NCBI GenBank assembly: GCA_964537895.1
Contig: CAZIDK010000001.1
Span: forward strand, 51,229-115,228
Direction: 5' to 3'
Length of the DNA stretch: 64,000 bases
Source: an uncultured Gammaproteobacteria bacterium
Lineage (GTDB): Bacteria; Patescibacteriota; Microgenomatia; Levybacterales; UBA12049
Shown here: positions 24,782 through 59,168 of the stretch, one piece after another
Layout: every line of letters begins with the position of its first letter
How positions within the stretch are numbered: position 1 is the first letter of the stretch
Program-made: the position numbers and the translations under genes
The notes under the pieces: generated by a model
Told to the model about the DNA's origin: nothing
What the model saw: the letters and a program-made list of their open reading frames with translations, nothing else
Databases searched by the model: none

Positions 24782-24801
24782 ATTTTAATTTCCTCTAAAA
24801 A

Positions 24802-25005: not shown

Positions 25006-25020
25006 CTGCCTTTTTCCCTG

Positions 25021-25058: not shown

Positions 25059-25457
25059 ATGAATAAAAGTCAAGTACCATTTAATCAAACCTTCGGAGAA
25101 TTTTTCAGACAAAAAAGAATTTCCTTAGACTTTACATTAAGATCTTTTTGCGAAAGGTATAATTATGACCCTGGTAATATCAGTAGACTTGAAAGAGACA
25201 TTCTCTCCCCAAGTGTAGATCAGCAAAAACTTGAGGGATATGCTGCAGCTTTGAAAATACCACGTGATAGCGAGGAGTGGACAATGTTTTTTGATTTAGC
25301 TCATACTGCAAAAGGTAAAATTCCCGAAGATATTCTAAGTGACCCAAAAGTTCTTTCAATTCTACCAGCTTTCTATAGAACAGCTAGGGGAGAAAAATTG
25401 GATAAAAAGAAAATAGACCAGTTAATTAAACTTCTTAATGAGAATAATAAAAAATAA
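25059..25457 (+). CDS. XRE-family helix-turn-helix transcriptional regulator
   Basis: HTH region with LRSFCERYNYDPGNISRLERD; 132 aa; TAATG stop/start overlap with the next gene. Confidence 0.65.
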   Translation: MNKSQVPFNQTFGEFFRQKRISLDFTLRSFCERYNYDPGNISRLERDILSPSVDQQKLEGYAAALKIPRDSEEWTMFFDLAHTAKGKIPEDILSDPKVLSILPAFYRTARGEKLDKKKIDQLIKLLNENNKK

Positions 25458-43863: not shown

Positions 43864-44310
43864 CTAATCGCTGTCGGGAGAAAATTTAATAGCCAGAAGT
43901 CTTACAACTATCAGAGTTAAAATTATTATTGCCAAAGAAACCGCTCCCTGAAGCGTTACGCCTTTAAACCATAAAGAAATTACTTCGTTTAACATAACTA
44001 TTAAAACAGTGTCCACGATATATGTAACTCTTACCCGCCCGTCTGTTAAGTAACTTAGGGTTGTCTTGATTACTTCGACTACTGCCAAAAGAGTTATTAC
44101 GTTAAGAAGAAGCTGTCTTAAGGAAACTTCAACGCCTGTATAAAAAAGCAGTCTTAAATCATAAAGAGTCTTTATTATTCCTCCAAAAAATCCTAGCAGG
44201 ATAACAAAAATTAATAAGCGGAGAAGAATTGGAATACTTTTTGACAAAAAAGATTTGGACAAAGTAAATGAAGTTTTTGTTAATTTAGGAACCTTATGTC
44301 TTCTTGCCAT
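43864..44310 (-). CDS. Small membrane protein (PsiE-like?)
   Basis: 4 TM helices; about 148 aa. The PsiE resemblance is weak. Confidence 0.4.
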   Translation of the reverse strand: MARRHKVPKLTKTSFTLSKSFLSKSIPILLRLLIFVILLGFFGGIIKTLYDLRLLFYTGVEVSLRQLLLNVITLLAVVEVIKTTLSYLTDGRVRVTYIVDTVLIVMLNEVISLWFKGVTLQGAVSLAIIILTLIVVRLLAIKFSPDSD

Positions 44311-44460
44311 TATTATAGGCAGTTTGACCTAATATTACTATCTTAACTTCCCGAATGCAATAAAGCAAAATGGGCGGGGAATAGATAAAGCAAACGTGTG
44401 AAGCTACAACACCCGGAGGGTGTGAAACTATTGAAGTTGGATATTCTTGATATATTTGAT

Positions 44461-44520
44461 CTTGAATCTTTGAAATCTAGAATTCTTGAAATCTAGAATT
44501 CAAATTCAAGAAAATCTCAC
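44461..44520. repeat. AT-rich short tandem repeats (cttgaaatctagaatt twice, plus related units)
   Basis: ctttgaaatctagaatt at 44468-44484 and cttgaaatctagaatt at 44485-44500, with flanking cttgaatct / attcaaattcaag variants. Confidence 0.6.
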
Positions 44521-44675
44521 CTCTAACTTCAAAAGTTCTAATTTAGAATTTCAAGGTCCAACTTCTCCCGACGAATTTCATTCGTGCGGGTTCACCCTGA
44601 AACGGTTCACCGTGAACGGGATCCCGACTGAAAACTATCAGCGGGACAGTTTCTACCGTCCAGTATTCAATACTG

Positions 44676-46334
44676 CTATACCTCGATAACAACGGGTAAG
44701 ACGAGGGGGCGTTTGCGAAGGGCTTTAAAAATATTTTTCTCCGCAATTTCGGAAATTAATTTCCTAACATAAATCCAGTCATTCATTCTTTCGGGTTTGG
44801 CAAAAAATGTATTTTTAAGCTGGGCGCCTAAATTCTTAATTAATAAGGCACTTTCTTGGGACGATAGGCCGCGGGCAATAATTGAGGGCAAATCTACCAT
44901 TTTTCCCGTTCCCGAATCTACTTCCGCCATAACAATTACAATTCCGTCTTTAGCTATTTTTTGTCTGTCTATTAAAACAAAATGTTCTACTTCTTCTCCG
45001 GAAACTTGATCCAGATAAACATTTTTTAGCGGAACTTTTTTCCCATAAGAAGAACTGTCTTTTGTAAAAATAATTTCCTGTCCATCTTCTACTAAAAGAA
45101 TATCGCGGTCTTCAAAACCCTGTCTTTTGGCAAGTCCTTTGTAAGCCACCATTTGCCTATATGTTCCGCCAATAGGCAGCACTTTTTTGGGATTTACCAA
45201 AGACATCAATAGCATCAAGTCGTTTGACGCGGCGTGTCCGGACACATGAAAATCACTTGAAACTTCCGAATAGACAACTCTTGCGCCTTTTTTGGAAATT
45301 GAATCTATTACATTGTTGACTGATATTTCGTTGCCAGGTATCGGGTCCGAGGAAAAAATTATAACATCATTTGGATTTATTTTAATTTCTTTGTTGTCGC
45401 CGTTAGCAATTCTGGAAAGAGCGGAGTTTTCCTGTCCTTGGCTTCCTGCAACAATTAAAACGACTTGGCTGTCTTTATAATTCCCAAGCTGTTCTATGGA
45501 AATTTCCGAACCTTTATCTATTTTCATATAACCTAAATCAATAGCTACGTCTCTTACTTTGTAAAAAGAACGGCCGACAAAACAAATTTTTCGGCCAAAC
45601 TTTTCTGCGGCTTTTATAGCCTGATTAAGCCGGGAAATATTTGAAGAATAAGTGGTAATGATAACTTTACCTTGAGCTTTGGCAATTTCTCTTTCAAAAT
45701 TTTCCCCTAAGGTCAATTCTGACGGCGTATAACCTTCTTTTTCCGAACGAAGACAGTCTGACATTAAAGATAAGACTCCTTCTTTTCCAACCGCTATTAT
45801 TTTGTCGAATTCATTCTTCTTATTATCCGCAGGAGTTAAATCAAATTTAAAATCACTGCCGTGATAAAAATTTCCAACCGGAGTTCTAATAAAAATATGA
45901 GATGTGTCGGGAACCGAATGTGTAACCCTTATAAAAGATAAAGAAAAACTGCCTAAGGTTAACGGTCCCCCGCCAAACTCAACCGGTTTTACTCTGCTAC
46001 CAACTTCTAATTCTTTTAATTTTTCATTGGCCAGTGCCGCCGTTAAAGGAGTCCCGAAAACCGGAAATTGGGGGAGCTGCGGCAGTACAAAAGGCAAAGC
46101 GCCGATATGGTCTTCGTGTCCGTGAGTTAAAACTAAACCGACAATTTTCTTTTTATTTTGCAAAAGATATGTTATGTCAGGAAGCAAAAGATCAACGCCT
46201 AACATTGTTTCGTCGGCAAAACCAATTCCGCAATCGACAATTAAAACCTCATCTTTATACTCGTAAAGATACATATTTTTGGTGACGTTTGAAACGCCGC
46301 CTAAGGGAATAAAAGAAAGTTGATCGTTATTCAT
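44676..46334 (-). CDS. rnj: Ribonuclease J
   Basis: Metallo-beta-lactamase motif LTHGHEDHIG, beta-CASP, and a C-terminal domain. 552 aa. Confidence 0.9.
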   Translation of the reverse strand: MNNDQLSFIPLGGVSNVTKNMYLYEYKDEVLIVDCGIGFADETMLGVDLLLPDITYLLQNKKKIVGLVLTHGHEDHIGALPFVLPQLPQFPVFGTPLTAALANEKLKELEVGSRVKPVEFGGGPLTLGSFSLSFIRVTHSVPDTSHIFIRTPVGNFYHGSDFKFDLTPADNKKNEFDKIIAVGKEGVLSLMSDCLRSEKEGYTPSELTLGENFEREIAKAQGKVIITTYSSNISRLNQAIKAAEKFGRKICFVGRSFYKVRDVAIDLGYMKIDKGSEISIEQLGNYKDSQVVLIVAGSQGQENSALSRIANGDNKEIKINPNDVIIFSSDPIPGNEISVNNVIDSISKKGARVVYSEVSSDFHVSGHAASNDLMLLMSLVNPKKVLPIGGTYRQMVAYKGLAKRQGFEDRDILLVEDGQEIIFTKDSSSYGKKVPLKNVYLDQVSGEEVEHFVLIDRQKIAKDGIVIVMAEVDSGTGKMVDLPSIIARGLSSQESALLIKNLGAQLKNTFFAKPERMNDWIYVRKLISEIAEKNIFKALRKRPLVLPVVIEV

Positions 46335-46337
46335 AAT

Positions 46338-47402
46338 TTATAAAGGCAAGAACTGTTTTATATTTTCTACTGTTATATGCATACTGCCGTTTTGAGCCAG
46401 TTTTCCTTCCACAATAAGTCTGGCAACTCTCCTACACATTGTTTCAATTGTTCTCTCAAGACTTCTAATCCCCGAATCAAATCCTAAAGGCCTGATAATA
46501 TTGGGCCATAAGCTATCATCTATTATCAACTGCCCGTCTGTTAACCCCGATGCTTTTCTTATTTTTGGGAATAAATATTCTTTTGCTATAATCTTTTTTT
46601 CTTCATCGGTATACGAAGGCATTTGAATAATCTCCAGTCTATCTAAAACAGATGTTGAAATATTGGTTGTATTGTTTGCGGTTGCTATAAAAAGAACGTG
46701 GGATAAGTTAAACGGATAATCGATGTAATGATCCGTGAAGGCCATATTTTGTTCCGGATCCAAAAGCTCCACCAAAACGCCCATAATATCCGCTCTTGCC
46801 TGCTCACTAACTCTATCCAGCTCATCCAAAAGTATTACGCAATTCCTGCTCTGCGCGTGAGCCAATTTTTTTATTACGAGGCCAGGCTCGGCGTCGGAAA
46901 ATGCTCTCGATTGCCCTCTTAAAGCAAGAGAATCGCCCATTCCGCCAAAAGGAATTCTTTCGAATTTTCTCCCCATTGCCTCTGCAATTGAATAAGCAAA
47001 AGTAGTTTTTCCCGTTCCCACTAAACCAACCAGGCAAAGTATAGGGGCCCTTACAGCATCCTGTGAATTATTCTGAAAATTTAAAATTAACGAAGAAAGG
47101 TATTCCAAAACGTCGTTTTTTACATTTTCCAAACCGTAATGATTTTTGTCTAAAGCCTTTTTTACCGTGTTTAAATCTAAAATATCTGTTGTTTCTCTAT
47201 TAAAAGGCAGGGACGAAACCCAATTTATGTAATTTGATATGTTCCCATAGTTAATAAAAGTACCCGTACCTGTTTTTAAACTTACACTTAAAATAGTAAG
47301 CATCGAATTGATTTTCTCCATTAAATCGGCAGGAAGTCCGGAGGAATTAATTTTTTCTTCTAATTTTTGTATTTGTGCCTCCAATGAAACAGTGGAATCC
47401 AT
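46338..47402 (-). CDS. Lon-like AAA+ ATPase lacking the Lon N-terminal substrate domain and the protease domain
   Basis: Strong similarity to the Lon AAA+ module (ILCLVGLVGTGKTT..., ILLDELDR, LLDPEQN, DYPFNLS, sensor-2 region), but it ends after the AAA+ alpha-helical subdomain. 354 aa. Confidence 0.7.
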   Translation of the reverse strand: MDSTVSLEAQIQKLEEKINSSGLPADLMEKINSMLTILSVSLKTGTGTFINYGNISNYINWVSSLPFNRETTDILDLNTVKKALDKNHYGLENVKNDVLEYLSSLILNFQNNSQDAVRAPILCLVGLVGTGKTTFAYSIAEAMGRKFERIPFGGMGDSLALRGQSRAFSDAEPGLVIKKLAHAQSRNCVILLDELDRVSEQARADIMGVLVELLDPEQNMAFTDHYIDYPFNLSHVLFIATANNTTNISTSVLDRLEIIQMPSYTDEEKKIIAKEYLFPKIRKASGLTDGQLIIDDSLWPNIIRPLGFDSGIRSLERTIETMCRRVARLIVEGKLAQNGSMHITVENIKQFLPL

Positions 47403-47419
47403 ACTTTTATAATAGCAGT

Positions 47420-47475
47420 TATTAGATACTAGTTACTAGTAACTGATTAACTAATTTTACTAGTTACTAGTTTAG
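47420..47475. promoter_or_regulatory. Palindromic ACTAGTTACTAGT elements between pnp and the Lon-like gene
   Basis: AGTTACTAGTAACT is a 14-bp perfect palindrome (47431-47444). A second ACTAGTTACTAGT lies at 47459-47471, abutting the pnp stop. Confidence 0.45.
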
Positions 47476-49739
47476 TAGCGTGGTTTTCTGTCTCTATTGA
47501 ATGCCGGTCTTTGACCAGGTCTTTTTGATCTCCAGTCCGAACTGCCTCTTTCTCTTCTTAGCTGCATTGATAATGGATGCTCTGACGGAACCTGTTCATG
47601 AACAGTTTTTTCATTTCCAGGTTCCGGTTTTTGGGCAACTTCGCCAAAGAGCATCGATAAGTTTGTTCTGCCTTGATCATCTATTTCAGCCACTCTTACC
47701 TTTACTTTTTGTCCAATTGCCACCACATCGCTTGGATTTTTTACAAATTCCGTAGACATTTTTGAAACGTGTACCATTCCCTCTTTACCGGGCAAAAATT
47801 CTACAAATGCTCCGAATGGAAGAATCCTTTTTACTTCCGCTTCTTCAAAAACTTCTCCGACCGTTACTTCTCTTACGAGTCCCTTAATCCAATCAACCGC
47901 TTTTTGCACAGACTCTTCGGAAACGCCTGATATAGCAACAGAACCGTCATCTTCAACTTCAACCGAGGCTCCTGTTGTAGCAATAATATTTTTAATTACT
48001 TTTCCTCCCGGACCTATTAATTCACCAATTCTATCCACCGGAATTTTAATTACTTCAATTTTCGGAGCATATTGGGATAAAGCTTCTCTAGGCTTAGGCA
48101 AAATTTTAAGCATAGTTTCTAAAATTTGAAGTCGGGCTGTCTTTGCTCTTTCTAAAATAACTTTTATTTGCTCAACAGTAAGCCCTGGAATTTTAACATC
48201 TAACTGAATTGCAGTAATTCCTGCATCTGTCCCTGCAACTTTAAAATCCATATCTCCTGAAAAATCTTCCAGACCGATAATATCTGTTAAAAGTTCATAA
48301 TTATCTCCATCGGACATCATTCCAATTGAAATACCGGCAACAGGTTTGCTAATTGGAACTCCGGCATCCATAAGAGCTAGCGTTGAACCGCAAGTTGATG
48401 CCATTGAACTTGAGCCATTTTGCGACAGAACTTCCGAAACCACCCTAATTGTATATGGGAATTCATCTTGTTTTGGTATTACCGCAAGAAGAGCTCTTTC
48501 AGCTAAGGCTCCGTGTCCTTTTTCACGCCTGGAAGGACTGCCAACGCGTCCTGTTTGACCAAAAGAATATGGAAGTCCTGAATAATGATGAATATATCTT
48601 TTTGTTTCTTCACCCTCCGCTGATTCAATTAACTGTTCCATACGAGGTGATCCAAGTGTAACAACCGATAGGGCTTGTGTAATTCCTCGCTGAAATAGAG
48701 CGCTGCCATGAGTTCTTGGAAGAAGTCCAACTTCTGTAACTATTTCTCTGATTTCATCCATTTTCCTTCCATCAACTCTTTTTTTCTTTCCAATTACATC
48801 TGCTTTTATCATTTTAAACATAACGTATTCAACTGCTTTTGCAATTATTTTTTTATCAAGCTGCGTATCGGGATTTGCCATTTTTGCATCTTCGTAAATT
48901 TTTGAAATCAAATCTTCTGTTTCTGCGCCGCTTCCTTCTTTATTTACGCGGGATTCAATAAGCGCGCCGACTTCGGCTTTATAGGATTTTTCAATAAGAC
49001 TTATTGCTTCATTAAGAGAATTTTCTACAGGAACTTCTAATTTTTTAACTCCAACTTTTTTAACCAAATCTTCAATTAAATCTATAATTTTGCTTGTTTC
49101 TTTGTGTGCTAATTCAACTGCTTCAACTAAAATATCTTCTGAAACTTGAAAAGCTCCAGCTTCAATCATATTTGTTTTATCTTTTGATTGAGAAACAACT
49201 AAATCAAGCTCTGAATATTGCTGTTCTGATCCTGGGTTAATTATACAGGCTGACCCTCCGTTACCTGATTCTTTAACACAGCCAACCCTTACCGCTCCTA
49301 TTGGTCCGTTCCATGGAATTCTTGATATTGCTAAAGCTGCTGAAACAGCATTCAAAGCAAGAACGTCTGCTTCATTTTCACCATCAACTGACAAAACAGT
49401 TACAATAACTTGAACATCATTTTTAAAGCTTTTTGGAAAAAGAGGGCGGATTGATCTATCTATTAAACGTCCTGCAAGAACTGCTTCGTCAGATGGCTGA
49501 CCTTCACGCTTTACCCAGCGGCTTCCTTTAATTTTTCCGCCTGCGTAAAGTCTTTCTCCGTATTCAACTGATAATGGAAAATAATCTAAATCTGATTTTC
49601 CCCCTTCGACAACGGTAACCAAAACTACCGTGTCTCCAAGACGGCCTAAAACAGAAGCTGTTGCTTGAATCGCTAACTCGCCTGTTTCCAATATTAGCTT
49701 TTTACCTGCTAATTCTAAAGTAACTGAGGTTTTTTTCAT
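47472..49739 (-). CDS. pnp: Polyribonucleotide nucleotidyltransferase (PNPase)
   Basis: Two RNase PH domains, KH and S1 domains, and an Arg-rich C-terminal tail. 755 aa. Confidence 0.95.
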   Translation of the reverse strand: MKKTSVTLELAGKKLILETGELAIQATASVLGRLGDTVVLVTVVEGGKSDLDYFPLSVEYGERLYAGGKIKGSRWVKREGQPSDEAVLAGRLIDRSIRPLFPKSFKNDVQVIVTVLSVDGENEADVLALNAVSAALAISRIPWNGPIGAVRVGCVKESGNGGSACIINPGSEQQYSELDLVVSQSKDKTNMIEAGAFQVSEDILVEAVELAHKETSKIIDLIEDLVKKVGVKKLEVPVENSLNEAISLIEKSYKAEVGALIESRVNKEGSGAETEDLISKIYEDAKMANPDTQLDKKIIAKAVEYVMFKMIKADVIGKKKRVDGRKMDEIREIVTEVGLLPRTHGSALFQRGITQALSVVTLGSPRMEQLIESAEGEETKRYIHHYSGLPYSFGQTGRVGSPSRREKGHGALAERALLAVIPKQDEFPYTIRVVSEVLSQNGSSSMASTCGSTLALMDAGVPISKPVAGISIGMMSDGDNYELLTDIIGLEDFSGDMDFKVAGTDAGITAIQLDVKIPGLTVEQIKVILERAKTARLQILETMLKILPKPREALSQYAPKIEVIKIPVDRIGELIGPGGKVIKNIIATTGASVEVEDDGSVAISGVSEESVQKAVDWIKGLVREVTVGEVFEEAEVKRILPFGAFVEFLPGKEGMVHVSKMSTEFVKNPSDVVAIGQKVKVRVAEIDDQGRTNLSMLFGEVAQKPEPGNEKTVHEQVPSEHPLSMQLRRERGSSDWRSKRPGQRPAFNRDRKPRY

Positions 49740-49751
49740 AATATCTAACTT

Positions 49752-49800
49752 GCCCGCCGACTAAGCGCTCCCCGATTCAATCGGGGTAAGCTTTGGCGGG
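49752..49800 (-). promoter_or_regulatory. Structured hairpin between rpsO and pnp (pnp leader / rpsO 3' stem-loop)
   Basis: Nested stems: inner CCCCGAT-tca-ATCGGGG (49770-49786) and outer CCCGCC...GGCGGG. Same position as the RNase III-processed pnp leader hairpin known from E. coli. Confidence 0.5.
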
Positions 49801-50070
49801 TTAGTCTTTAAGTCCAACTTTTTTCGCAATTACGGAGGAACGTGCCTTATCCACTTTTGCCAAAAAATTCATCAGTCTTCTTCTTTTTGCAATCATGGAT
49901 AAAAGTCCGCGGCGGCTATGTGTGTCATGAGCATGCAGTTTAAGATGCTCTGTTAAACGGGTAATTCTGGTAGTTAAAAGCGCAATTTGCACCTCGGGAC
50001 TACCGGTATCACCTTTAACAGTTTGAAATTCTTTTATAATGTCTTGTTTCTGCGAAGTACTAAGCGGCAT
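49801..50070 (-). CDS. rpsO: 30S ribosomal protein S15
   Basis: 89 aa; GDTGSPEVQIALLT...HDTHSRRGLL...RRRL matches S15. Confidence 0.95.
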   Translation of the reverse strand: MPLSTSQKQDIIKEFQTVKGDTGSPEVQIALLTTRITRLTEHLKLHAHDTHSRRGLLSMIAKRRRLMNFLAKVDKARSSVIAKKVGLKD

Positions 50071-50158
50071 ATCTAATTAATTTATAATTTAAAATTCAAA
50101 ATTTATAATTTACTTTGAGTATTATATCAACTATCTTTATGTTTATCAATGCTCTGAT

Positions 50159-51097
50159 TTAGAAGTTTGTGGAACCTTTGTAGATTTTCGGGGCAAGCCA
50201 ATCTTCGGGCGGGTTCTCGTTTGTGATTTCTTTTTCCGGTTCCTGTTGCTTAGCTGCTGGTTTTGAAGCAAATTGATTTACCGGTGAGTCTTGATTCCTG
50301 CTTACAGGTTTTGGGAAAAATTGTTCCGTGTTTACCGGCTCTGACTGTTTTATATTATTACTAATTCTTATTGCTCCGTTTTTCATAAGAAGCGCGGCCA
50401 TTTCAAATGCTAAAGCGCTTGTTTTTACGTCTTGAAAATTATTTGTTGCATCAGCTATCCCATACATTAAGTTTTGCGCAGTATCAATGTCTATTTTTAA
50501 ATTAAGCGATAAAATTAGATTTGCAACCTGTTCGGAAACTGAAGACAGCATAGGATAAACCATAATTATATCTCCAAAACCCTGATTTTCGGCTTTATTA
50601 TCAATATTAATAATCATTGTGTCTTTTAAACCGGCGATATCAAAAAGCTTCCCTAAATCCGAGAGTCTTGGAACACCAATTGTAAAAAGAAGATTTGGCA
50701 TACCTTGGCTTCTTGCAAACGATACTTCTTTTTCCTCAAAAGAAAGACCTTTTTCTCCGGCTTTTACAACAATATTTAATAATCCGTTTTCAAGAGTATA
50801 GGAAACTTTTTCTATTTCTCCCTCTTGATACGGAAAAGAAACCGTTAGGTCTCCTGATTCACCGCTAAGAGCAGTTCTAACTTTGTCTATACCGACTAAG
50901 GAAGAAACTTCAACCAGAGGATTTTCCGGAGTTGCAATCGTCACTGATTTTCCAACCAGGGTTAACGATAAATAAAGCGCTAAAGCGGCCCCCATCTCAT
51001 CGAGTGACGGATTTTTGGCCGTAACTATTCCGATAGTTTTATTCTTTTGAATGGCTTCAGTAATTTGCTTAAAGGTTTGGCTGTCCATAACTTCCAA
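50159..51097 (-). CDS. NrnA/DHH-family homolog with substituted catalytic motifs (likely inactive)
   Basis: Clear collinear similarity to NrnA, but DHH is replaced by DNK (IINIDNK), motif I DxD by LDE, and GDTGRF by ADATNNF. C-terminal low-complexity tail. Confidence 0.5.
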   Translation of the reverse strand: MEVMDSQTFKQITEAIQKNKTIGIVTAKNPSLDEMGAALALYLSLTLVGKSVTIATPENPLVEVSSLVGIDKVRTALSGESGDLTVSFPYQEGEIEKVSYTLENGLLNIVVKAGEKGLSFEEKEVSFARSQGMPNLLFTIGVPRLSDLGKLFDIAGLKDTMIINIDNKAENQGFGDIIMVYPMLSSVSEQVANLILSLNLKIDIDTAQNLMYGIADATNNFQDVKTSALAFEMAALLMKNGAIRISNNIKQSEPVNTEQFFPKPVSRNQDSPVNQFASKPAAKQQEPEKEITNENPPEDWLAPKIYKGSTNF

Positions 51098-52606
51098 TTA
51101 TCGATGGGATATTAACACATCTCCTATAGTAAAGTCAAGAAAAGGAGATAGTATTATTCCCGCTTCCTGACCTTTTTCTACTTTGGAGACCGTTTCCTTA
51201 CCTTGCCTTACGGAAGAAATATTAGCTTCACCAATTGCCTCATCTTTTCGCATAACCCTTACTTTGTCGCCCCTGGCGATTCTTCCGTCTAAAACCGTAA
51301 TGCCCAAAACTTCTGTTTTTTCAAAAGGAAAACGCGCCAAAACTTTTGCCGTACCAAAAACTTCTTCCTGTAAAGATAAAATTTTCCCATCCAAAAGATC
51401 TTGTATTTCATCCATCATTTCGTAGATAAGCAAGTAATTTTTTAAAAGAACTTTTTCCGTTGCGGCCAGTTTAACAACCTCGGGTTTAATTTTTATGTTA
51501 AAACCTAAAATAATTGCCCCGACGGATTTTGCAAATAAGACGTCGGACGTCTCTATGTCTCCTGTTTTTGTCATTGCAACCTTTATTCTTTCGGGAATTT
51601 TATTAACTATTGCCTCTAAAGATCCTTGGGAATCCGCACAAATAATAACCGACAAGACGTTTAGATCTACGTCTATATTTGGACCCAATTCCTTTATTTC
51701 CTCTATCTCTGTTTCTATTCCTTGCCCTTCCGTAGCTTTAGCGGAGGAGGGTTCGACAACTTTTTCGCTCTTTTTAAAAACGACCTCTCCAACTTTTGGA
51801 ACTTCTTCAAATCCTAAAATTTCAACCGCGTCGCCAACGGTTGCTTTTTCCAGCCTTTCCCCTAAATCGTTTATTATTGTTCTAACACGGCCGGAAACAC
51901 TGTCGCAGACTATTTCATCACGTAATAAAATAGTTCCATTTTTAACAATAACTGTTGCTCTGGGGCCGGATTTTTGATCAAGTTTTGATTCAATAACTAC
52001 TGCCGAAAAAGGATTATCTTTTGAAAACTTATAAAATCCCGAGTGTTTTTTCATATCAAAAACAAGCAGGATAAGTTCTAAGAGTTCTTTTATATTTATA
52101 TTTGTTTTCGCGGAAACTTCAATTACGGGAATATCTCCGCCGTAATTTTCCAAAAGAACTTCTTCTTTTAAAAGCTGCTGTTTTGCTTTTTCCGGATTTT
52201 TATTTGGATCGTCCGATTTTGATAAAACTACAATAAAGGGAATTTTTGAATCTTGCAAAAGCTTTATACTTTCTTTAGTTTGCGGCTTGACTCCGTCGGC
52301 GGATGAAACAACCAAGAGGCCAATATCCGCAGCCTGAACTCCCCTTCCGCGCATTAAAGAAAAAGCTTCGTGTCCGGGAGTATCGATAAAAGTTATATTT
52401 CTTTTCTTTCCTTCGTGAGTTATTTCTACGGTTGATGCTCCAATTTTTTGCGTTATTCCACCGTGTTCACGAAGGGCAATCGTTGTTTTTCTTATTGTGT
52501 CTAAAAGAGTGGTTTTCCCGTGATCAACGTGGCCTAAAACCGCCACAACAGGAGGATAATTTATCTCAGTTGAACTTTGAGCGTTATTTTGTTTATTTTT
52601 TGCCAT
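51098..52606 (-). CDS. infB: Translation initiation factor IF-2, short form (G domain onward)
   Basis: [22 protein letters not shown] and SKSD motifs, then domains II/C1/C2. Only 502 aa; N-terminal domains absent. Confidence 0.9.
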   Translation of the reverse strand: MAKNKQNNAQSSTEINYPPVVAVLGHVDHGKTTLLDTIRKTTIALREHGGITQKIGASTVEITHEGKKRNITFIDTPGHEAFSLMRGRGVQAADIGLLVVSSADGVKPQTKESIKLLQDSKIPFIVVLSKSDDPNKNPEKAKQQLLKEEVLLENYGGDIPVIEVSAKTNINIKELLELILLVFDMKKHSGFYKFSKDNPFSAVVIESKLDQKSGPRATVIVKNGTILLRDEIVCDSVSGRVRTIINDLGERLEKATVGDAVEILGFEEVPKVGEVVFKKSEKVVEPSSAKATEGQGIETEIEEIKELGPNIDVDLNVLSVIICADSQGSLEAIVNKIPERIKVAMTKTGDIETSDVLFAKSVGAIILGFNIKIKPEVVKLAATEKVLLKNYLLIYEMMDEIQDLLDGKILSLQEEVFGTAKVLARFPFEKTEVLGITVLDGRIARGDKVRVMRKDEAIGEANISSVRQGKETVSKVEKGQEAGIILSPFLDFTIGDVLISHR

Positions 52607-52662
52607 AAATTTAATAAATTATGCGACAAGTATAAATTTTTTGAAAAAATATTATTCATATT

Positions 52663-53907
52663 TTAGCCTGCTTCACTTGTCTTATCTTCTTTAGTTTCTT
52701 TTACTTCTTTTCCGCCAGAGGCGGATTTCGGCTTACCCGCGTTTGACGCGGCTACGCTCAACTTTGCGGCTTTTTTAGGCTTTGTTGGTTTTGTTGCGGC
52801 TTTTTTTATTTTTTTAGGTTTTTTGACTTCTTCAACCGCTTCCTTCACGCCAGAGGCGGATTTCACTTTCGCCGAGTCTGACTCGGCTTCGTTCAACTTT
52901 TTCTCTTGTTCTTCGAGAGCAGATTCTCCTTCTATTTCAATCCTGTAGCCTGTTAACTTCGAGGCTAAGCGCACATTTTGTCCGTCTTTTCCTATTGCCA
53001 AGGAAAGTTCATCCGAAGGAACCGTAACTCGGGCTACTTTTTCTTTTTCATCAACTTCCAATTTAATATTTTTTGCGGGAGAAAGAGCTTGAACGATATA
53101 ATTTTTAGAATTTTCCTGCCATTGGATAATATCGATTTTTTCTAAACCCCCAAATTCCTGAATTATCGCCTGGATTCTTACCCCCCTTTGTCCAACACAA
53201 CTGCCAACGGGGTCAATCCCTGATTGATTTGAATAAACCGCTACCTTACTTCTATTTCCCGGCTCTCTGACAATCTGCTTTATCTCAACTGCGCCTTGGG
53301 AAACTTCGGGAACTTCTCTTTTGAATAATCCTTCCAAAAGACCGCTATGCGCTCTTGAAACAATTACTTCTTCGCCTTTTAATCCTTCCTTAATCTCTGC
53401 TAAGTAAACAGCCAATCTCTGATTTAAATGGTATTTTTCGTTTGGAATTTGTTCACTTGAAGGCATTACCGCTTCTGCTTTGCCAATATCTACAATAATA
53501 TTTGGTCCTGCAAACCGCAAAACCATACCGTTTACAATAGTTCCAATTCTAAGCTTGTAATCTGAAATAATTGCTTCTTTTTCTTTTTCTCTTATTTTTT
53601 GCAAAATTACCTGTTTTGCAGTTTGAGCGGCGATTCTTCCAAATCCCGGAGGCGTAACGTCTTTATTTTTATTGAAAATTTTTGCCTCACCCGTATTTGC
53701 GTCTAAAGTGGCTGAATATTCTTCCAGCTCCATTCCCGGGTGATCTTTTCTGTAAGCTGCCAAAATGGCGTTTTTTACCGTATCTAAAACAATAGCGGGA
53801 TCAAGGCCTCTTTCGTTTGAGACCTGATTTAGCGCTAATGCGAATTCACTTCTTTGTATTGCCGGCATAAGTCTGCTAAGTATACCATTTTCGAGGCTTT
53901 GCTTCAA
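52663..53907 (-). CDS. nusA: Transcription termination/antitermination factor NusA
   Basis: N-terminal domain, S1 and two KH domains, plus a Lys-rich C-terminal tail. 414 aa. Confidence 0.9.
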   Translation of the reverse strand: MKQSLENGILSRLMPAIQRSEFALALNQVSNERGLDPAIVLDTVKNAILAAYRKDHPGMELEEYSATLDANTGEAKIFNKNKDVTPPGFGRIAAQTAKQVILQKIREKEKEAIISDYKLRIGTIVNGMVLRFAGPNIIVDIGKAEAVMPSSEQIPNEKYHLNQRLAVYLAEIKEGLKGEEVIVSRAHSGLLEGLFKREVPEVSQGAVEIKQIVREPGNRSKVAVYSNQSGIDPVGSCVGQRGVRIQAIIQEFGGLEKIDIIQWQENSKNYIVQALSPAKNIKLEVDEKEKVARVTVPSDELSLAIGKDGQNVRLASKLTGYRIEIEGESALEEQEKKLNEAESDSAKVKSASGVKEAVEEVKKPKKIKKAATKPTKPKKAAKLSVAASNAGKPKSASGGKEVKETKEDKTSEAG

Positions 53908-53925
53908 TAAGTTAACTGGAGGGTA

Positions 53926-54444
53926 TTATTGCGGTTCTTGAGTTTCAACAATTGGATTAGATAACATACTGTCAACTTCTATTTCTGCTAGCTTTACTGC
54001 TTCAAGACCAAATATCAATCTTGATGACGAACGCAAGCCTATTTTATCTCCAGACTCATGTGAGATAACCGATATAAAGGGACGTGGGCAATATATGTGT
54101 GCATCTTTTGGATCATGAATAATTATTCTATCTTCTTTTGTTGTTATTGCCAATAACCAAGCGCCGGGAGTATCTTCAGAATGGCTATATTCTAAATGAG
54201 ATCCGTTTGGAAGAATTGTATCTATTTCCTCCTGTATATTTATACCAAGTGCGTCCAAAACCTTTGCTTTAAGTCTGGTTAGTGCATCTTCTATTTGTTT
54301 TTTTTTAGACCAATATTCTTCTGTAGCATTAGAATGAAACTCTTCATAAAGCCTGTCATATGCTAACCTTGTTTCTTCCGATGAATTAGGTCTTTCTGCT
54401 TTTGGCATGATGGAGATTATATTATTAAAATATTGTCTTGTCAA
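53926..54444 (-). CDS. Hypothetical protein in the position usually held by rimP
   Basis: 172 aa, no RimP-like sequence features. Immediately upstream of nusA. Confidence 0.4.
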   Translation of the reverse strand: MTRQYFNNIISIMPKAERPNSSEETRLAYDRLYEEFHSNATEEYWSKKKQIEDALTRLKAKVLDALGINIQEEIDTILPNGSHLEYSHSEDTPGAWLLAITTKEDRIIIHDPKDAHIYCPRPFISVISHESGDKIGLRSSSRLIFGLEAVKLAEIEVDSMLSNPIVETQEPQ

Positions 54445-54461
54445 TAATATAGGACTATTGA

Positions 54462-56825
54462 CTACTTATTTACTATTATCGTTCCTGAAGCATTAACGGT
54501 TACGGAAAGGTTGTCGCCTCTTTTTATCTCGTCTTTGAGCATTTTTTGGGCTATTAAGTCCTCAATATTGTCTTGAATAAATCTTTTAAGAGGCCTTGCG
54601 CCGAATTCCTTATCAAATCCTTCTTTTGCAATTTTTGTAATTATATTATCGTCAAAAACTATTTCTATGTCTTTATCTTTCAAATTATTTTGAAATTGAA
54701 CAAGCATTAATTTTGTAATCGCCAGGACTTCTTTTTCTGCCAAAGGCTTAAAAGTGACAATTTCGTCAAACCTGTTTAGAAGTTCGGGTTTAAAAATTCC
54801 CTGCTTCTGAAGATAATCCAAGAGATTGGTTTTGAAACTTTTATCGATTATTGAACCTTTTTGAATTTCTTCCCTGATAAATTCACTGCCCGCGTTTGAA
54901 GTTGCGATGATAATTGCGTTGGCAAAAGAAATTGTTTTCCCTTTGTTATCCGTAAGCCTGCCGTCGTCTAAGACCTGCAGGAATAAATCTAAGATTTTAG
55001 GGTCGGCTTTTTCAAATTCGTCTAACAGAACCAAAGAAAACGGATTATCATAAACTTTTTCTATCTCTCCTTTTTCACTTCCTTCTCCGGGCGTAGCGCC
55101 TAATAATCGTTTTATTCCTTCTTCTCCCTTGTATTCACTCATATCAAACCTTAACATTGCGTCTTCGGATTTAAAATATATTGCCGAGAGGGCTTTTGCG
55201 GTTTCTGTTTTTCCAACTCCGGTTGGCCCTAGAAAAAGAAATGAAATTGGTTTTTTCGATGTGTTTAGTCCCGTTCTTACTCTTCTTAACGCCTCCGAAA
55301 CCGCGGAAACCGCCTCTTCCTGATCAACAATTCTTTTATGAATTTCACTTTCTAAATTAAGCAACAATTCTTTTTCTGCCGCTTTCGGCTGACCAACGGG
55401 GATATTGGTTTTTCTTTCAACTTGAGTTAAAATATCCTGCTCTTTTACAATTTTTTTGCCAGAAAGTTTAACGTTATTGGCGGTATCTGTTAAAAGATCA
55501 ACGGCAGAACCCGGCAAAACTTTTTCCTTGCTATATTTTGATGAAAATTCAAAAGCCGCAACAATTGCCCTGTAAGTTAAAGACACATTAAATTCTTTTT
55601 CCAGCCAAAAAGCTTTTTTAAAAAGCATAAGTAGACTTGTATCTTTATCCGGCTCGTCAAATTTTACAATCTCAAAAACATCTAAAAGTGTATTTCTCGG
55701 TTCAACAAATTTTTTATAAACTTCGGGCGTTACCGTTCCGACAACCCTTAATACTCCTTTTTCAAGATATGGAATAAGAGCGCCGGAAAGGTCTATTGCA
55801 AAAGTAGAACCGCCTAAAATAGCTTCAAAATTGGGGATATGAATTATCACATTACCGGCATGGGAAATTTCCGCAATTAGTAAGTCCAAACGCTCTTGTA
55901 AGTCTCCCTGATTGGTTGTTCCGGCCAAAAACGCGTCGACCATAAGCTGAAAAAATTTCTGGTGATAAAGATTTCCCTTTAAATTTCCGGCAAAACTTTC
56001 ATAAGCTAAATCTTCAATAACGGATTCTTTACCGCTTCCGGTCTCTCCTACCAAAATAATGCTCGTTCCTTTATATAACGCTTCTACTGTTTGGTTATAT
56101 TCGTCTTCTCTTCCTAAAGACATCGGTTTACGGCTTAAAACTGCGGGGGTTAAGTCAATCATGTATTTTTTTGTTTCTATGGTCCACCCAAACACCCATT
56201 CTTCGGCAAGTCCTTCTCCTGCAAAATTTACGCTTAAAGATTTTGGATTTTCTTCCGTCTCAAATCCTGTTCTTGTCCAATATAAAATATGTATCATTTC
56301 TTCTTTTTTAAGTTTTTTATTAAATAAAAGCTTTGTTTTATCCTCCGTTAAAAGAAGATAAGCCGCAAAAATATCCATTGTTGTAACATATTTTCCCTTT
56401 AAGGTTTTTGAGAGCTCAAGAGCATAATTTGCCAAATCCTGTTTTTCAATCTCAATAAATTGAATTTCTTTTATCAAAACGTCTGCTTTTTCCAGCATAA
56501 AAGCAACGGACGGCTTATGCATAAGGCTTTTTATAACATCAGCTGTCTTATCTTTACTGCCAAAAATACTTAAAGCTTCCAAGGTAAATGCGTCTAATGC
56601 GACTTTTGTTTCTAAAACTATGGATCTTGGACTTTGTTTTGAGATTTTAAATTTGAAAAAAACTTCAAACATTAAAAACACGGAGAAAGCGAAAACAAAT
56701 AGCTTTAAATTAATCCCGTTTTGATATGAAAACAAAATAAGTAAAGTTAAGACCAAAAATATGCCCAGTCTTAAAATTTTTATTAAAAACATGTTGTAAA
56801 AATAATAAAGTTTAGCGTTTGTCAT
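54462..56825 (-). CDS. Membrane-anchored Clp/Hsp100-family ATPase with a degenerate first nucleotide-binding domain
   Basis: Two N-terminal TM helices. The D1 Walker A is GETGSGKES (Ser/Thr replaced by Glu) and the Walker B region is IIHIPNFE (DE lost). D2 is canonical ([19 protein letters not shown], sensor and arginine-finger motifs). Confidence 0.7.
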   Translation of the reverse strand: MTNAKLYYFYNMFLIKILRLGIFLVLTLLILFSYQNGINLKLFVFAFSVFLMFEVFFKFKISKQSPRSIVLETKVALDAFTLEALSIFGSKDKTADVIKSLMHKPSVAFMLEKADVLIKEIQFIEIEKQDLANYALELSKTLKGKYVTTMDIFAAYLLLTEDKTKLLFNKKLKKEEMIHILYWTRTGFETEENPKSLSVNFAGEGLAEEWVFGWTIETKKYMIDLTPAVLSRKPMSLGREDEYNQTVEALYKGTSIILVGETGSGKESVIEDLAYESFAGNLKGNLYHQKFFQLMVDAFLAGTTNQGDLQERLDLLIAEISHAGNVIIHIPNFEAILGGSTFAIDLSGALIPYLEKGVLRVVGTVTPEVYKKFVEPRNTLLDVFEIVKFDEPDKDTSLLMLFKKAFWLEKEFNVSLTYRAIVAAFEFSSKYSKEKVLPGSAVDLLTDTANNVKLSGKKIVKEQDILTQVERKTNIPVGQPKAAEKELLLNLESEIHKRIVDQEEAVSAVSEALRRVRTGLNTSKKPISFLFLGPTGVGKTETAKALSAIYFKSEDAMLRFDMSEYKGEEGIKRLLGATPGEGSEKGEIEKVYDNPFSLVLLDEFEKADPKILDLFLQVLDDGRLTDNKGKTISFANAIIIATSNAGSEFIREEIQKGSIIDKSFKTNLLDYLQKQGIFKPELLNRFDEIVTFKPLAEKEVLAITKLMLVQFQNNLKDKDIEIVFDDNIITKIAKEGFDKEFGARPLKRFIQDNIEDLIAQKMLKDEIKRGDNLSVTVNASGTIIVNK

Positions 56826-57155
56826 TTAAATAAATAGCAAATAAATTGTGGCAAAAGGCCAAAAAATAAACATAAGAAAAAAAGCCAATTCGATAATTAA
56901 AAGACATAAAAACAAAAGTAGATCGGCAAGAATTACAAAAGTTTTAATAAATATTCCCATCGCAATAGAAAAACCAACCAAACCTTGCCTATATTCATTT
57001 TTCCAAGGTTTAAAGTATGTTTTTACAAGAAGAGGGAGAGAAAAAAGCTGAAGAAATGCCTTATTTAAAGAAAGAGAAAAAGAGAGTATTGAAACCGGAG
57101 CTTCAAAAAACCAAAATCTTAAAAAAATAACGGGCAGTAAAAATAAACCGGTCAT
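56826..57155 (-). CDS. Small membrane protein
   Basis: Highly hydrophobic 109-aa ORF directly upstream of, and abutting, the Clp-like gene. Confidence 0.35.
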   Translation of the reverse strand: MTGLFLLPVIFLRFWFFEAPVSILSFSLSLNKAFLQLFSLPLLVKTYFKPWKNEYRQGLVGFSIAMGIFIKTFVILADLLLFLCLLIIELAFFLMFIFWPFATIYLLFI

Positions 57156-57307
57156 AAGGTTTACCCTTCCGAAGCTTTCTTGTCCTTCGAAGTTTTAACG
57201 AAGGAGGAATGCGTAGGAGGGCAGTTTACCCTGTACCCAAAGTGGTTCAGGGTTAATTTAAGTTTAAGTAATTAAAGACGAAATTGCAAAGATTAGATTT
57301 GGCGGGA

Positions 57308-57380
57308 TTTACCCCGTCAAATAATTTTAAATTACTATTTAAAATTAAGATTTGTTCAAATCTTATTTGACGGGGTAAAT
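57308..57380. repeat. Long inverted repeat: 17-bp perfect arms TTTACCCCGTCAAATAA / TTATTTGACGGGGTAAA with a structured loop
   Basis: Arms at 57308-57324 and 57364-57380. The loop holds a second inverted repeat, AAGATTTG-ttc-AAATCTT. Located just downstream of the 57381-59168 gene. Confidence 0.6.
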
Positions 57381-59168
57381 TTAATTGGGGGTACATTTAA
57401 GAACGCACATTTGAATTGAGTTTTTTCCAGAGTTACAGCTGGCTGGATCAAAAACGCAGTTATAGGTTGGCGCAGAGCTTGGGGTTGGGGATGGCGACGC
57501 GGCAGGCGTTGGAGTTGCCGACGCGCTTGGGATAGGCGTTGGCGTTGAGGAAGGGTTTGTGCCTGTTATAGTAATTATGGCCGGGTTAGCAGAAGACAAA
57601 ACATTTTGATTAAAATAATCTGTCGAGGCTGTAGAAAGAGCTTGAGATTGTTGGAGATTTACGCTAACCTGTGTTGTTCCGGGATTGGTTGGGGCGATTG
57701 CCTGAAAGGTTACTGTTGCTATCTTTGCCGAAGTCCGAATTACACTTTGCAGACTTCCCCCGACAGAAAGAGTAACCGAAATTGTTCCGGAACTATAAAT
57801 CGGCCCTTGTAAAACAAGCGGAAAAGCAAGTACGTTTGGACAAAACGCATCTGTAGGTTTTGCAGGGCAAATTGCCGGGCCGGCGGGCAATACCGAAAGC
57901 TTAGTCGGATCATAATTTATGACTAATTTTGTAAAAGAAACCTCATTTGTTCCCGGATTAAGCATGATATCTAAATTTACAGTGTCATTAACAATAACCG
58001 TTTGAGGAGTAGGGTTAAAGTTAATGCTCGTGGATGGGCTAACGTTAACAGCAGCTCCTATTGGACAGGGTTTATAATTAGGCAGAATGTTGTTTGTTAT
58101 CCAAGCCTGTTCAGTCTGATCAAATTGATTGGGAGCGCAACCGATAGCGCTCATTATCGTGTCTGAAGTCCCGCCGCTTATAATATTCTTATTATTTACT
58201 GCCTGGCAAGTAAGCGGAAAGGGTGCATATTGTCCCTGATTTGAACATCCTTGGAAAACACCGGCTGAACCTGCACCGGTCCAAAAAGGTTCTCCTTCCG
58301 GATTTGTCGAACAGTTACTCAACGGCTCTCCCGGCGCTATCAGCGCATAGTTTGGGTCGCTGCTCACATACCTATCCCAAAGATAGCCTACCGCATGTCC
58401 CCCCAGCTCATGAGACGCTGCAGCAAAGGGTTTTCCGCTGGTTGGTCCTGGACCGGAATAAACATAATTTGTGTAAATTATTACGTCTCCGCCAATACCG
58501 TTCACAAGCCCGGCAACTCCTCCATCTACAGTTAAGGCATTAGGATTATCAACCAAGACAATAAATTTTTGCGCATTGGGGAAATATCTTAAACCCGCAT
58601 TTTTAATGATTCCTGACAAATTGTTTATACACGAAGCAATACCCGAGCTGGCGCAGCCAAAATCTTGCCGAGTGTCAACTTCCTTAAAATCAAAAATACT
58701 GGGGTTTGTATTATAAGGAGGTGTTGTATTGTATAGATTCTTAAGATATGACACATCATTCTTGAACTGATATGTGTTTGCATAATTATCATTTATAAAA
58801 ACCGTGGTAATGGGTCCGCAGGAAACACTTTGCCCTTGCGCCTGCGCACTTTCGATAAAACCCACAGCAGCAGATTTTGGAAGATTTAGCTGTAAAACAG
58901 CATTATTGTTTTTTAATATGGTCATTTTCGATGCGTCTTTTTGATAGGGAACAAAAATAACGCTTTTAATATCGGTTGGCAGAAACAAGGGACTGTCCGG
59001 AGCGCTCAGAAAAAGAGAATACAGTATTTTCTCGGTAATATGTACTTTTTCCGCAAAAATAACATTTCCATTTTTACCCAAAACCTCTAACTTATAAGGC
59101 GAGTACAAAGCGTTTCTTTTATCGGGAACGGTTTTCCTGTTTATAACCGTTAATTTTTCAAGAGACAA
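57381..59168 (-). CDS. Secreted protein with an HExxH metalloprotease-like motif and a Pro/Thr/Ser-rich C-terminal linker
   Basis: HELGGHAVGY (HExxH); C-terminal TPTPIPSASATPTPAASPSPTPSSAP followed by a Cys-containing tail. 595 aa. Confidence 0.5.
   Translation of the reverse strand: MSLEKLTVINRKTVPDKRNALYSPYKLEVLGKNGNVIFAEKVHITEKILYSLFLSAPDSPLFLPTDIKSVIFVPYQKDASKMTILKNNNAVLQLNLPKSAAVGFIESAQAQGQSVSCGPITTVFINDNYANTYQFKNDVSYLKNLYNTTPPYNTNPSIFDFKEVDTRQDFGCASSGIASCINNLSGIIKNAGLRYFPNAQKFIVLVDNPNALTVDGGVAGLVNGIGGDVIIYTNYVYSGPGPTSGKPFAAASHELGGHAVGYLWDRYVSSDPNYALIAPGEPLSNCSTNPEGEPFWTGAGSAGVFQGCSNQGQYAPFPLTCQAVNNKNIISGGTSDTIMSAIGCAPNQFDQTEQAWITNNILPNYKPCPIGAAVNVSPSTSINFNPTPQTVIVNDTVNLDIMLNPGTNEVSFTKLVINYDPTKLSVLPAGPAICPAKPTDAFCPNVLAFPLVLQGPIYSSGTISVTLSVGGSLQSVIRTSAKIATVTFQAIAPTNPGTTQVSVNLQQSQALSTASTDYFNQNVLSSANPAIITITGTNPSSTPTPIPSASATPTPAASPSPTPSSAPTYNCVFDPASCNSGKNSIQMCVLKCTPN

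What the first reader, a model, noticed from the sequence alone, without database searches (positions are those of the whole stretch)
50159..51097. NrnA/DHH homolog with every catalytic motif substituted, sitting where rbfA-truB normally lie between infB and rpsO
The sequence is collinear with the bifunctional oligoribonuclease NrnA, but DHH is replaced by DNK, DxD by LDE, and GDTGRF by ADATNNF. This suggests a catalytically dead pseudo-enzyme retained in the nusA-infB-...-rpsO-pnp cluster. rbfA and truB are absent from the cluster, and the rimP position holds an unrelated ORF.
Basis: partly seen in the sequence, partly recalled or inferred. Interest (0 to 1): 0.5.

Follow-up and report, generated by a model that had tools for sequence, protein, structure and literature searches.

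The report
Dead, truncated NrnA-like protein after infB
A gene right after the translation factor gene infB encodes a well-conserved relative of the small-RNA-degrading enzyme NrnA that has lost its catalytic residues and its substrate-binding half and gained a flexible tail ending in an invariant peptide, so it most likely works as a non-enzymatic adaptor in one class of ultra-small (CPR) bacteria.

The parts
50159..51088 (-). Gene for the DHH-like pseudoenzyme (309 aa plus TAA stop at 50159-50161). The listed ORF extends to the TTG at 51097, but homologues start at the ATG at 51088.
50357..51088 (-). Residues 1-244: DHH-fold domain. It is acidic (net charge -9 here; family median -8, pI ~5.1).
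50999..51007 (-). Motif I remnant S28-L29-D30. The canonical motif is D-x-D. The first Asp is lost and D30 is invariant.
50687..50905 (-). Residues 62-134: region holding the family-specific beta insert (strands 81-84, 92-100, 103-110, 123-126). It is among the best-conserved parts (GDLxVSFPYxEGEIEKVSY..LNIVVK) and has no counterpart in solved NrnA structures.
   Evidence: the profile-to-PDB alignment skips profile positions 76-133
50675..50677 (-). G138 at the motif II position. This is the catalytic Asp in TM1595 (D80) and Bacillus NrnA (D80).
   Evidence: PMC9757072
50594..50602 (-). D163-N164-K165 in place of the DHH motif III.
50435..50449 (-). A214-T-N-N-F in place of motif IV D-T-G-x-F. 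The catalytic Asp is D154 in TM1595 and D156 in Bacillus NrnA.
50219..50356 (-). Residues 245-290: variable Q/P/E-rich linker, predicted disordered. Its length is 22-169 aa across the family. It occupies the place of the DHHA1 domain.
50162..50218 (-). Residues 291-309: conserved C-terminal peptide NPPEDWLAPKIYKGSTNF. P294, W297, P300 and K301 are invariant in 114 sequences. dN/dS is 0-0.04.
51098..52606 (-). infB. It encodes a short IF2 (502 aa) with no N-terminal domains. Its stop codon lies 9 nt before the DHH-like start codon.
52663..53907 (-). nusA, the conserved first member of the nusA-infB-X unit.
50121..50149 (-). Promoter-like site TTGATA-17-TATAAT (11/12, with TG) between the DHH-like stop codon and rpsO. 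It suggests that rpsO-pnp form a separate transcription unit.
   Evidence: 58/85 relatives have a >=10/12 site within 120 nt upstream of rpsO, against 23/86 upstream of the DHH-like gene. Consensus matches only.
49801..50070 (-). rpsO (S15), the downstream neighbour. It is followed by pnp at 47472-49739.

Best explanation
The gene encodes a functional but non-catalytic descendant of the infB-linked nanoRNase NrnA'. Only the DHH half survives. Five of its seven active-site residues are replaced, so the two-metal centre cannot form. The substrate-binding DHHA1 half is gone. A conserved beta insert has been added to the DHH domain. A flexible Q/P/E-rich linker now ends in an invariant peptide (P-x-D-W-L/F-x-P-K-I/V-Y/F-K).

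I propose that it works as an adaptor. The acidic folded domain, with its insert, is one binding surface. The C-terminal peptide is a docking motif that tethers the protein to a macromolecular partner. The protein is made together with NusA and IF2: its start lies a median 11 nt after the infB stop and nothing is ever inserted between them. My preferred partner is therefore the initiation/30S machinery (IF2 or the small subunit). Under that reading it may cover for functions lost with RbfA or with the missing IF2 N-terminal region. The PNPase/RNase J decay machinery encoded just downstream is the second candidate.

Shown here: the fold, the motif loss, the domain loss, the conservation of the tail, purifying selection and the synteny. 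Inferred: lack of enzyme activity, the adaptor role and the identity of the partner.
For: Fold and ancestry:
- Family profile against PDB: E=2e-19 and 7e-19 to TM1595 and Rv2837c, against 6e-10 to Bacillus NrnA.
- PMC4081065 defines the NrnA' clade by synteny with infB, rbfA and nusA.

Loss of catalysis:
- The signature is S-D-G-D-N-K-A against the canonical D-D-D-D-H-H-D.
- The G138 and A214 positions correspond to D80/D154 of TM1595 and D80/D156 of Bacillus NrnA. Their Asn mutants are inactive (PDB titles; PMC9757072).
- There is no DHHA1 domain or GGGH motif.

A real, constrained gene:
- >1600 homologues, and 505 clusters at 50% identity with E<=1e-30.
- dN/dS is 0.11-0.13, equal to IF2 and PNPase. 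The tail is at 0-0.04.

Tether architecture:
- Linker length is 22-169 aa with low pLDDT.
- The tail lies 13-16 residues from the stop codon in all but one of the full-length loci.
- P294, W297, P300 and K301 are invariant in 114 sequences at 29% mean column identity.

Coupling to infB:
- infB stop to start: median 11 nt, maximum 148, n=86.
- 31/84 loci have 200-6240 nt inserted before rpsO.
- A promoter-like site lies before rpsO.

The synteny holds in Levy-, Woese- and Gottesmanbacteria-type members at 33-40% identity. Microgenomatia lack rbfA, era and der (PMC12641178). IF2 here has no N-terminal region.
Against: - No activity or binding was measured.
- D30 and D163 are retained. One subfamily keeps 4 of the 7 residues (T-D-D-D-R-H-A). 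A residual single-metal or ligand-binding site therefore cannot be excluded.
- The partner is not identified. AF2 on the monomer leaves the tail at pLDDT 50-60, and no complex modelling was possible.
- Adjacency to infB is inherited from the ancestral infB-rbfA-nrnA' operon, so it is weak evidence for a physical link to IF2.
- The motif was not found on any other protein in 1.3 Mb of related loci, so no shared-partner logic could be used.
- The tail has no match in PDB sequences.
Confidence: 0.6

Rival explanations
1. It is a scaffold or regulator of RNA decay. The C-terminal peptide docks onto PNPase (or RNase J), which are encoded 1-3 genes downstream, in the way short peptides at the end of the disordered RNase E tail recruit PNPase. 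The dead nanoRNase domain would be a relic of an ancestral NrnA'-exonuclease partnership.
For: pnp follows two genes downstream in nearly all ~90 loci, and rnj, where the locus reaches that far, lies 1-2 genes beyond it. The architecture is folded domain, disordered linker and short aromatic/basic peptide. NrnA acts on the end products of exonucleases, and co-evolution of nanoRNases with the decay machinery has been suggested (PMC4081065). The PNPase-binding GWW motif of Caulobacter RNase E is cited from my own knowledge.
Against: The gene is much more tightly linked to infB than to rpsO-pnp. Insertions of up to 6.2 kb are tolerated before rpsO but none before the gene itself. A promoter-like site separates it from rpsO-pnp. 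No interaction test was possible.
Confidence: 0.18
2. It is a nucleotide sensor. The degenerate DHH pocket (D30, D163, E186, D202, N206, T215) still binds a phosphate-bearing ligand such as pAp, a dinucleotide, c-di-AMP or (p)ppGpp without cleaving it. Ligand binding would change what the tail or insert can bind.
For: Two former metal ligands and several pocket-lining positions remain invariant or nearly so across 114 diverse members. The Bacillus NrnA D80N D156N mutant still binds dinucleotides (PMC9757072).
Against: In NrnA-type enzymes, substrate recognition is attributed largely to the DHHA1 domain (GGGH and RxRxR motifs; PMC9757072), and that domain is absent here. Metal-dependent binding needs ligands that are missing.
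Confidence: 0.12
3. It is still a hydrolase that uses a different residue set or a single metal ion. The insert would replace DHHA1 as the substrate-binding lid.
For: D30 and D163 are retained. N164 and N168 could ligate a metal. The strongly conserved insert could form a new lid. Sources annotate members as 'nanoRNase/pAp phosphatase' or 'DHH family phosphoesterase', but these are automatic names.
Against: Both aspartates whose Asn mutants are inactive in TM1595 and NrnA, and both histidines, are replaced by Gly, Ala, Asn and Lys. The replacements vary between subfamilies (N/T/R/K and N/K/H/S at the His positions), which is not what a new catalytic set would show.
Confidence: 0.08
4. It is a decaying pseudogene or a chance ORF.
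For: Only the sub-threshold Pfam and NCBIfam scores.
Against: dN/dS is ~0.11, equal to essential neighbours. There are hundreds of clusters with an intact reading frame and an invariant tail. The AF2 model is confident (pLDDT 86).
Confidence: 0.01

Closest known systems
NrnA' nanoRNases encoded with infB-rbfA (M. tuberculosis Rv2837c/CnpB, M. smegmatis MSMEG_2630) and T. maritima TM1595
   Different: Those are DHH-DHHA1 two-metal phosphodiesterases with intact DxD/D/DHH/D motifs and GGGH. Here 5 of the 7 active-site residues are replaced and DHHA1 is absent. A ~50-residue beta insert, a disordered linker and a C-terminal peptide are added.
Bacillus subtilis NrnA (YtqI)
   Same: Same superfamily and domain fold.
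   Different: It is more distant (profile E 6e-10), has a different gene neighbourhood (dnaE, accA, pfkA, pyk) and is fully active.
Cdc45 and archaeal RecJ-Cdc45/GAN-type proteins (DHH-family members used as non-catalytic or scaffold subunits of replicative helicases)
   Different: They belong to a different DHH subfamily (RecJ-like), retain a DHHA1-like domain, act in DNA replication and are archaeal or eukaryotic. There is no close evolutionary link to this family. That Cdc45 is non-catalytic is from my own knowledge.
Tethered docking peptides: RNase E C-terminal microdomains, the SSB C-terminal tail and archaeal/eukaryotic ribosomal stalk P1 tails that recruit aIF5B/IF2-type GTPases
   Same: The architecture is the same: folded domain, variable disordered linker and a short invariant C-terminal peptide.
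   Different: There is no sequence similarity to any of these motifs. The comparison rests on my own knowledge and is an analogy only.

Membership tests
DHH phosphoesterase superfamily (fold) | DHH-domain alpha/beta fold with a five-stranded parallel sheet | tested here: met
DHH phosphoesterase superfamily (Pfam PF01368) | Score at or above the Pfam gathering threshold (28.1 bits) | tested here: not met
   19.8 bits, E=1e-3. The Gottesmanbacteria-type subfamily does carry precomputed PF01368 hits.
NrnA / NrnA' bifunctional oligoribonuclease-pAp phosphatase | Motifs I-IV with four Asp and the His residues that hold two Mn2+/Mg2+ ions (Bacillus NrnA H20, D24, D26, D80, H103, H104, D156) | tested here: not met
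   S28, D30, G138, D163, N164, K165 and A214 occupy the seven DDDDHHD positions tallied here (H20 is outside that tally). Only 2 of those 7 are retained. No member among 140 representatives has more than 4 of 7 (PMC9757072).
NrnA / NrnA' bifunctional oligoribonuclease-pAp phosphatase | C-terminal DHHA1 domain with the GGGH-x-x-ASG motif | tested here: not met
   No DHHA1 hit in Pfam. All sequence and structure alignments to NrnA end near residue 245-254. Residues 245-309 are predicted disordered.
NrnA / NrnA' bifunctional oligoribonuclease-pAp phosphatase | NCBIfam NF053633 equivalog cut-off (350 bits) | tested here: not met
   19.8 bits over residues 185-242 only.
NrnA' clade (PMC4081065) | Gene neighbourhood with infB, rbfA and nusA | tested here: met
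   nusA-infB-X held in all ~90 loci. rbfA itself is absent.
NrnA / NrnA' bifunctional oligoribonuclease-pAp phosphatase | Hydrolysis of 2-5-nt RNA, pAp or linear dinucleotides | not testable with these tools
   This needs an enzyme assay.
RbfA / TruB / RimP (the genes expected in this operon) | Pfam domain of the respective family in the ORFs of the cluster | tested here: not met
   No such hit in the cluster ORFs or in 20 other 100-300 aa ORFs of the window. The ORF before nusA is an orphan.

The most novel reading that the evidence does not exclude
The dead NrnA' has been recruited as a Microgenomatia-specific initiation or 30S-maturation factor. It would be co-translated with the N-terminally truncated IF2 and dock through its invariant C-terminal peptide onto IF2 or the small subunit. 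In that role it would functionally replace the lost RbfA (and/or the missing IF2 N-terminal region). This would be a nuclease fold converted into a ribosome-associated adaptor in the smallest known bacterial translation systems.
Probability: 0.15. Interest if true: 0.75.

Novelty: new variant of a known kind. Interest (0 to 1): 0.45.

Why it matters
CPR/Patescibacteria have about half the usual ribosome-biogenesis factors. How they compensate is an open question (PMC12641178).

This protein is as constrained as IF2 and PNPase. It sits in the core nusA-infB unit in all ~90 Microgenomatia-type loci examined. Databases name it either 'hypothetical' or, wrongly, an active nanoRNase/pAp phosphatase.

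Recognising it as a pseudoenzyme with a tethered docking peptide does three things:
- It corrects the annotation and any metabolic inference that these organisms possess NrnA activity.
- It supplies a bacterial case of a DHH fold reused without catalysis; I found no published precedent for this family, though my literature searches were narrow.
- It gives a concrete, testable handle, an 11-residue invariant peptide, for finding a lineage-specific partner in translation or RNA decay.

Tried and rejected
- Shifted catalytic residues. Profile-to-PDB and structural comparisons place the substitutions exactly at the catalytic columns. No alternative Asp/His set is conserved.
- Split enzyme. I asked whether extra ORFs after the gene in some relatives (174 aa, 222 aa) encode the missing DHHA1. 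They have no Pfam hit, and the window has only 88 nt there.
- Second DHH protein in the window. An HMM of the family against all six-frame ORFs found none.
- Stop-codon read-through fusion with IF2. The two genes are in the same frame in the window. In-frame spacing occurs in 31/86 loci, which is the chance level.
- The same tail on other proteins. A regex over 1.32 Mb of six-frame translation matched only at the C-terminus of this gene.
- Tail against PDB sequences. Nothing significant.
- Cis docking of the tail. AF2 with 29 and then 114 sequences leaves the tail at pLDDT 33-37 and 50-60. This is inconclusive.
- ORF172 as a divergent RimP. It has no family hit, is absent from close relatives, and the gene before nusA is not conserved.
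- Rfam elements in 44000-57500. None found.
- Fused-chain AF2 of IF2 or PNPase with the protein. I prepared paired sequences from 80 genomes.
- Two tools failed. The afdb50 fold library was unavailable. Alignment A2 was too diverse for a locus search.
- Literature. Full-text searches found no paper on this family.

Full report
WHAT IS THERE. The window looks like a genome of the CPR class Microgenomatia. The closest records are Levybacteria MAGs. GC content is 35-40%. On the minus strand lie, in order:
- a ClpB-like AAA+ gene (54462-56825);
- an orphan ORF (53926-54444);
- nusA (52663-53907);
- a short infB (51098-52606, 502 aa, with the G domain starting at residue ~21);
- the gene in question (50159-51097 as listed);
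- rpsO (49801-50070) and pnp (47472-49739);
- a Lon-type AAA+ gene without a protease domain (46338-47402);
- RNase J (44676-46334) and ftsK.

All 29 aligned homologues begin MD/ME at the ATG at 51088, so the protein has 309 residues.

CHECK OF THE OBSERVATION. Single-sequence searches give weak but specific DHH/NrnA hits.
- Pfam DHH scores 19.8 bits, below the 28.1 cut-off.
- NCBIfam NrnA scores 19.8 bits against a cut-off of 350.
- phmmer gives E~1e-6 to MSMEG_2630 and Rv2837c.

The alignments place the following at the catalytic positions:
- S28-L29-D30 at the DxD motif;
- G138 at the motif II Asp;
- D163-N164-K165 at DHH;
- A214-T-N-N-F at D-T-G-x-F.

G138 and A214 are the positions of TM1595 D80/D154 and Bacillus NrnA D80/D156. 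Their Asn mutants are the standard inactive forms (PDB titles; PMC9757072).

There is no DHHA1 domain and no GGGH motif. Residues 245-309 are predicted disordered.

THE FAMILY. More than 1600 homologues were found with the word-indexed search. The exhaustive search found 505 clusters at 50% identity with E<=1e-30. Source names are Levybacteria, Woesebacteria, Gottesmanbacteria, Microgenomates and 'Patescibacteria group'.

Among 140 full-length representatives, none has the canonical D-D-D-D-H-H-D set. The commonest signature is S-D-G-D-N-K-A. The best preserved, in the Gottesmanbacteria-like subfamily, is T-D-D-D-R-H-A, which keeps 4 of 7. The residues that replace the two histidines vary between subfamilies. 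That pattern fits relaxed catalytic constraint, not a new active site.

Three features are instead strongly conserved.
(i) The two surviving acidic residues D30 and D163, together with E186, D202, N206 and T215.
(ii) A beta insert of about 50 residues (GDLxVSFPYxEGEIEKVSY...LNIVVK) within residues 62-134. It has no counterpart in solved NrnA structures, since the profile-to-PDB alignment skips profile positions 76-133.
(iii) The extreme C-terminus, P-x-D-W-[LF]-x-P-K-[IV]-[YF]-K. P294, W297, P300 and K301 are invariant in 114 sequences whose mean column identity is only 29%.

Between domain and tail lies a Q/P/E-rich linker of 22-169 residues. The folded domain is acidic in every member (median net charge -8, pI ~5.1).

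IS IT A LIVE GENE? Nei-Gojobori dN/dS against three relatives is 0.11-0.13. That matches infB (0.10-0.125) and pnp (0.10-0.14). The tail is at 0-0.04 and the linker is the least constrained part. A pseudogene or chance ORF is excluded.

CONTEXT. In 80 GTDB species-level loci and about 10 further contigs, the order nusA-infB-X-rpsO-pnp is invariant, usually followed by the Lon-type AAA+ gene, rnj and ftsK. These loci include members only 33-40% identical.
- X starts a median 11 nt (maximum 148 nt, n=86) after the infB stop.
- By contrast, 31 of 84 loci have 200-6240 nt, including IS and toxin-antitoxin genes, between X and rpsO.
- An 11/12 sigma-70-like site with an extended TG lies between X and rpsO in the window.
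- Sites matching at least 10/12 occur upstream of rpsO in 58/85 relatives, against 23/86 in the control stretch upstream of X.

These are consensus matches only. They suggest that X closes the nusA-infB unit and that rpsO-pnp are transcribed separately.

The gene before nusA is not conserved. It is often ClpB-like directly, and otherwise assorted small ORFs. ORF172 has no match even in genomes whose X is 94% and 83% identical.

No rbfA, truB or rimP domain occurs in the window ORFs that I scanned. No second DHH protein is present.

COMPARISON WITH WHAT IS KNOWN. PMC4081065 showed that nanoRNases fall into two clades. One of them, NrnA' (MSMEG_2630, Rv2837c), is defined by having infB, rbfA and nusA as neighbours and is co-transcribed with infB and rbfA. 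The window protein's best sequence and structure matches belong to that type. It is therefore most simply the positional descendant of NrnA', left next to infB after loss of rbfA. It is not a newcomer in an rbfA-truB slot.

PMC12641178 reports that Dojkabacteria, WWE3 and Microgenomatia lost rbfA, era and der, and that rimP is nearly absent from all CPR.

I found no paper describing this degenerate family. Public annotations are 'hypothetical protein', 'DHH family phosphoesterase', 'nanoRNase/pAp phosphatase' and in one case 'NrnA'. The enzyme names are very probably wrong.

HOW IT PROBABLY WORKS. With 5 of the 7 active-site residues gone and no DHHA1 domain, canonical two-metal phosphodiester hydrolysis and NrnA-type substrate binding are very unlikely (my estimate: 0.9 that it lacks such activity). 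The protein has three parts: an acidic folded domain with a conserved new surface, a linker of variable length, and a short invariant terminal peptide. This is the standard layout of a tethered docking motif.

I therefore propose a non-enzymatic adaptor (about 0.7). The partner is not established.
- I lean towards IF2 or the 30S subunit (about 0.3). The reasons are the near-obligatory translational coupling to infB, the absence of the IF2 N-terminal region, and the loss of RbfA in this class.
- PNPase or RNase J is next (about 0.2). RNase E-type scaffolds recruit PNPase through similar terminal peptides, and pnp and rnj are conserved neighbours.
- A ligand-sensor role of the degenerate pocket (about 0.12) and a residual unconventional hydrolase (about 0.08) remain possible.

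AF2 on the monomer does not dock the tail confidently, with pLDDT 33-37 using 29 sequences and 50-60 using 114. This neither supports nor excludes binding in cis.

VERDICT. It is incomplete on the domain loss, the tail and the native NrnA' synteny. It is a new variant of a known kind: a widespread, strongly constrained pseudo-nanoRNase of Microgenomatia. Interest is moderate (0.45). Pseudoenzymes are common and the missing rbfA and rimP are already known. What stands out is a protein as conserved as IF2, placed in the core transcription-translation operon, with an invariant docking peptide and no known function.

Noticed in passing
window 51098-52606 (-): IF2 is only 502 aa and its G domain starts at residue ~21. 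The N-terminal domains found in most bacterial IF2 proteins are missing. Relatives are 486-519 aa.
   Followed up: partly
window 46338-47402 (-): This is a 354-aa Lon-type AAA+ ATPase (AAA plus Lon lid) without any protease domain. It lies between pnp and rnj and keeps that place in most related loci, though not all.
   Followed up: partly
window 53926-54444 (-): ORF172 at the 'rimP position' is an orphan. It has no family hit and no tblastn match even in the closest relatives. A perfect 12/12 TTGACA-17-TATAAT site (54444-54416) overlaps its listed TTG start. The ORF may therefore be shorter (ATG at 54408) or not a gene, and the site may be the nusA-infB promoter.
   Followed up: partly
window 54462-56825 (-): This is a ClpB-like double-AAA+ protein (787 aa) with a strongly hydrophobic, probably membrane-spanning N-terminus. 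It is conserved just upstream of nusA in many Levybacteria.
   Followed up: no
window 9893-10771 (-): A 292-aa ORF with no Pfam hit is inserted between rpsG (10912-11427) and the 699-aa ORF at 7459-9558, which I take to be fusA from its size and position (it was not scanned). This is inside the otherwise canonical str operon.
   Followed up: no
window 47472-49739 (-) and 52663-53907 (-): PNPase carries a ~60-residue basic C-terminal extension. NusA lacks AR1/AR2 Pfam hits and ends in a K/A/E-rich tail. Both were read from the translations.
   Followed up: no
loci L008, L014-L016, L018, L036, L068 and others: Many GTDB/TPA records that carry this Levybacteria-type locus are titled 'uncultured Gammaproteobacteria', 'Woesearchaeota', 'Methylomirabilota' or 'Limnocylindrales'. 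These are apparent taxonomic mislabels.
   Followed up: no
L001 8948-9472; L004 9081-9749; L090 9006-10750: Some relatives have extra ORFs without Pfam hits (174, 222, 82 and 499 aa), or IS and toxin-antitoxin genes, between the DHH-like gene and rpsO. This junction is an insertion hotspot, whereas the infB junction is never interrupted.
   Followed up: partly
window 24119-26044 and 26221-26982: A HEPN-domain protein, an unannotated 132-aa ORF followed by an IrrE/M78 peptidase-like protein, and RadC lie here. This is a small cluster of defence or toxin-antitoxin-like genes.
   Followed up: no
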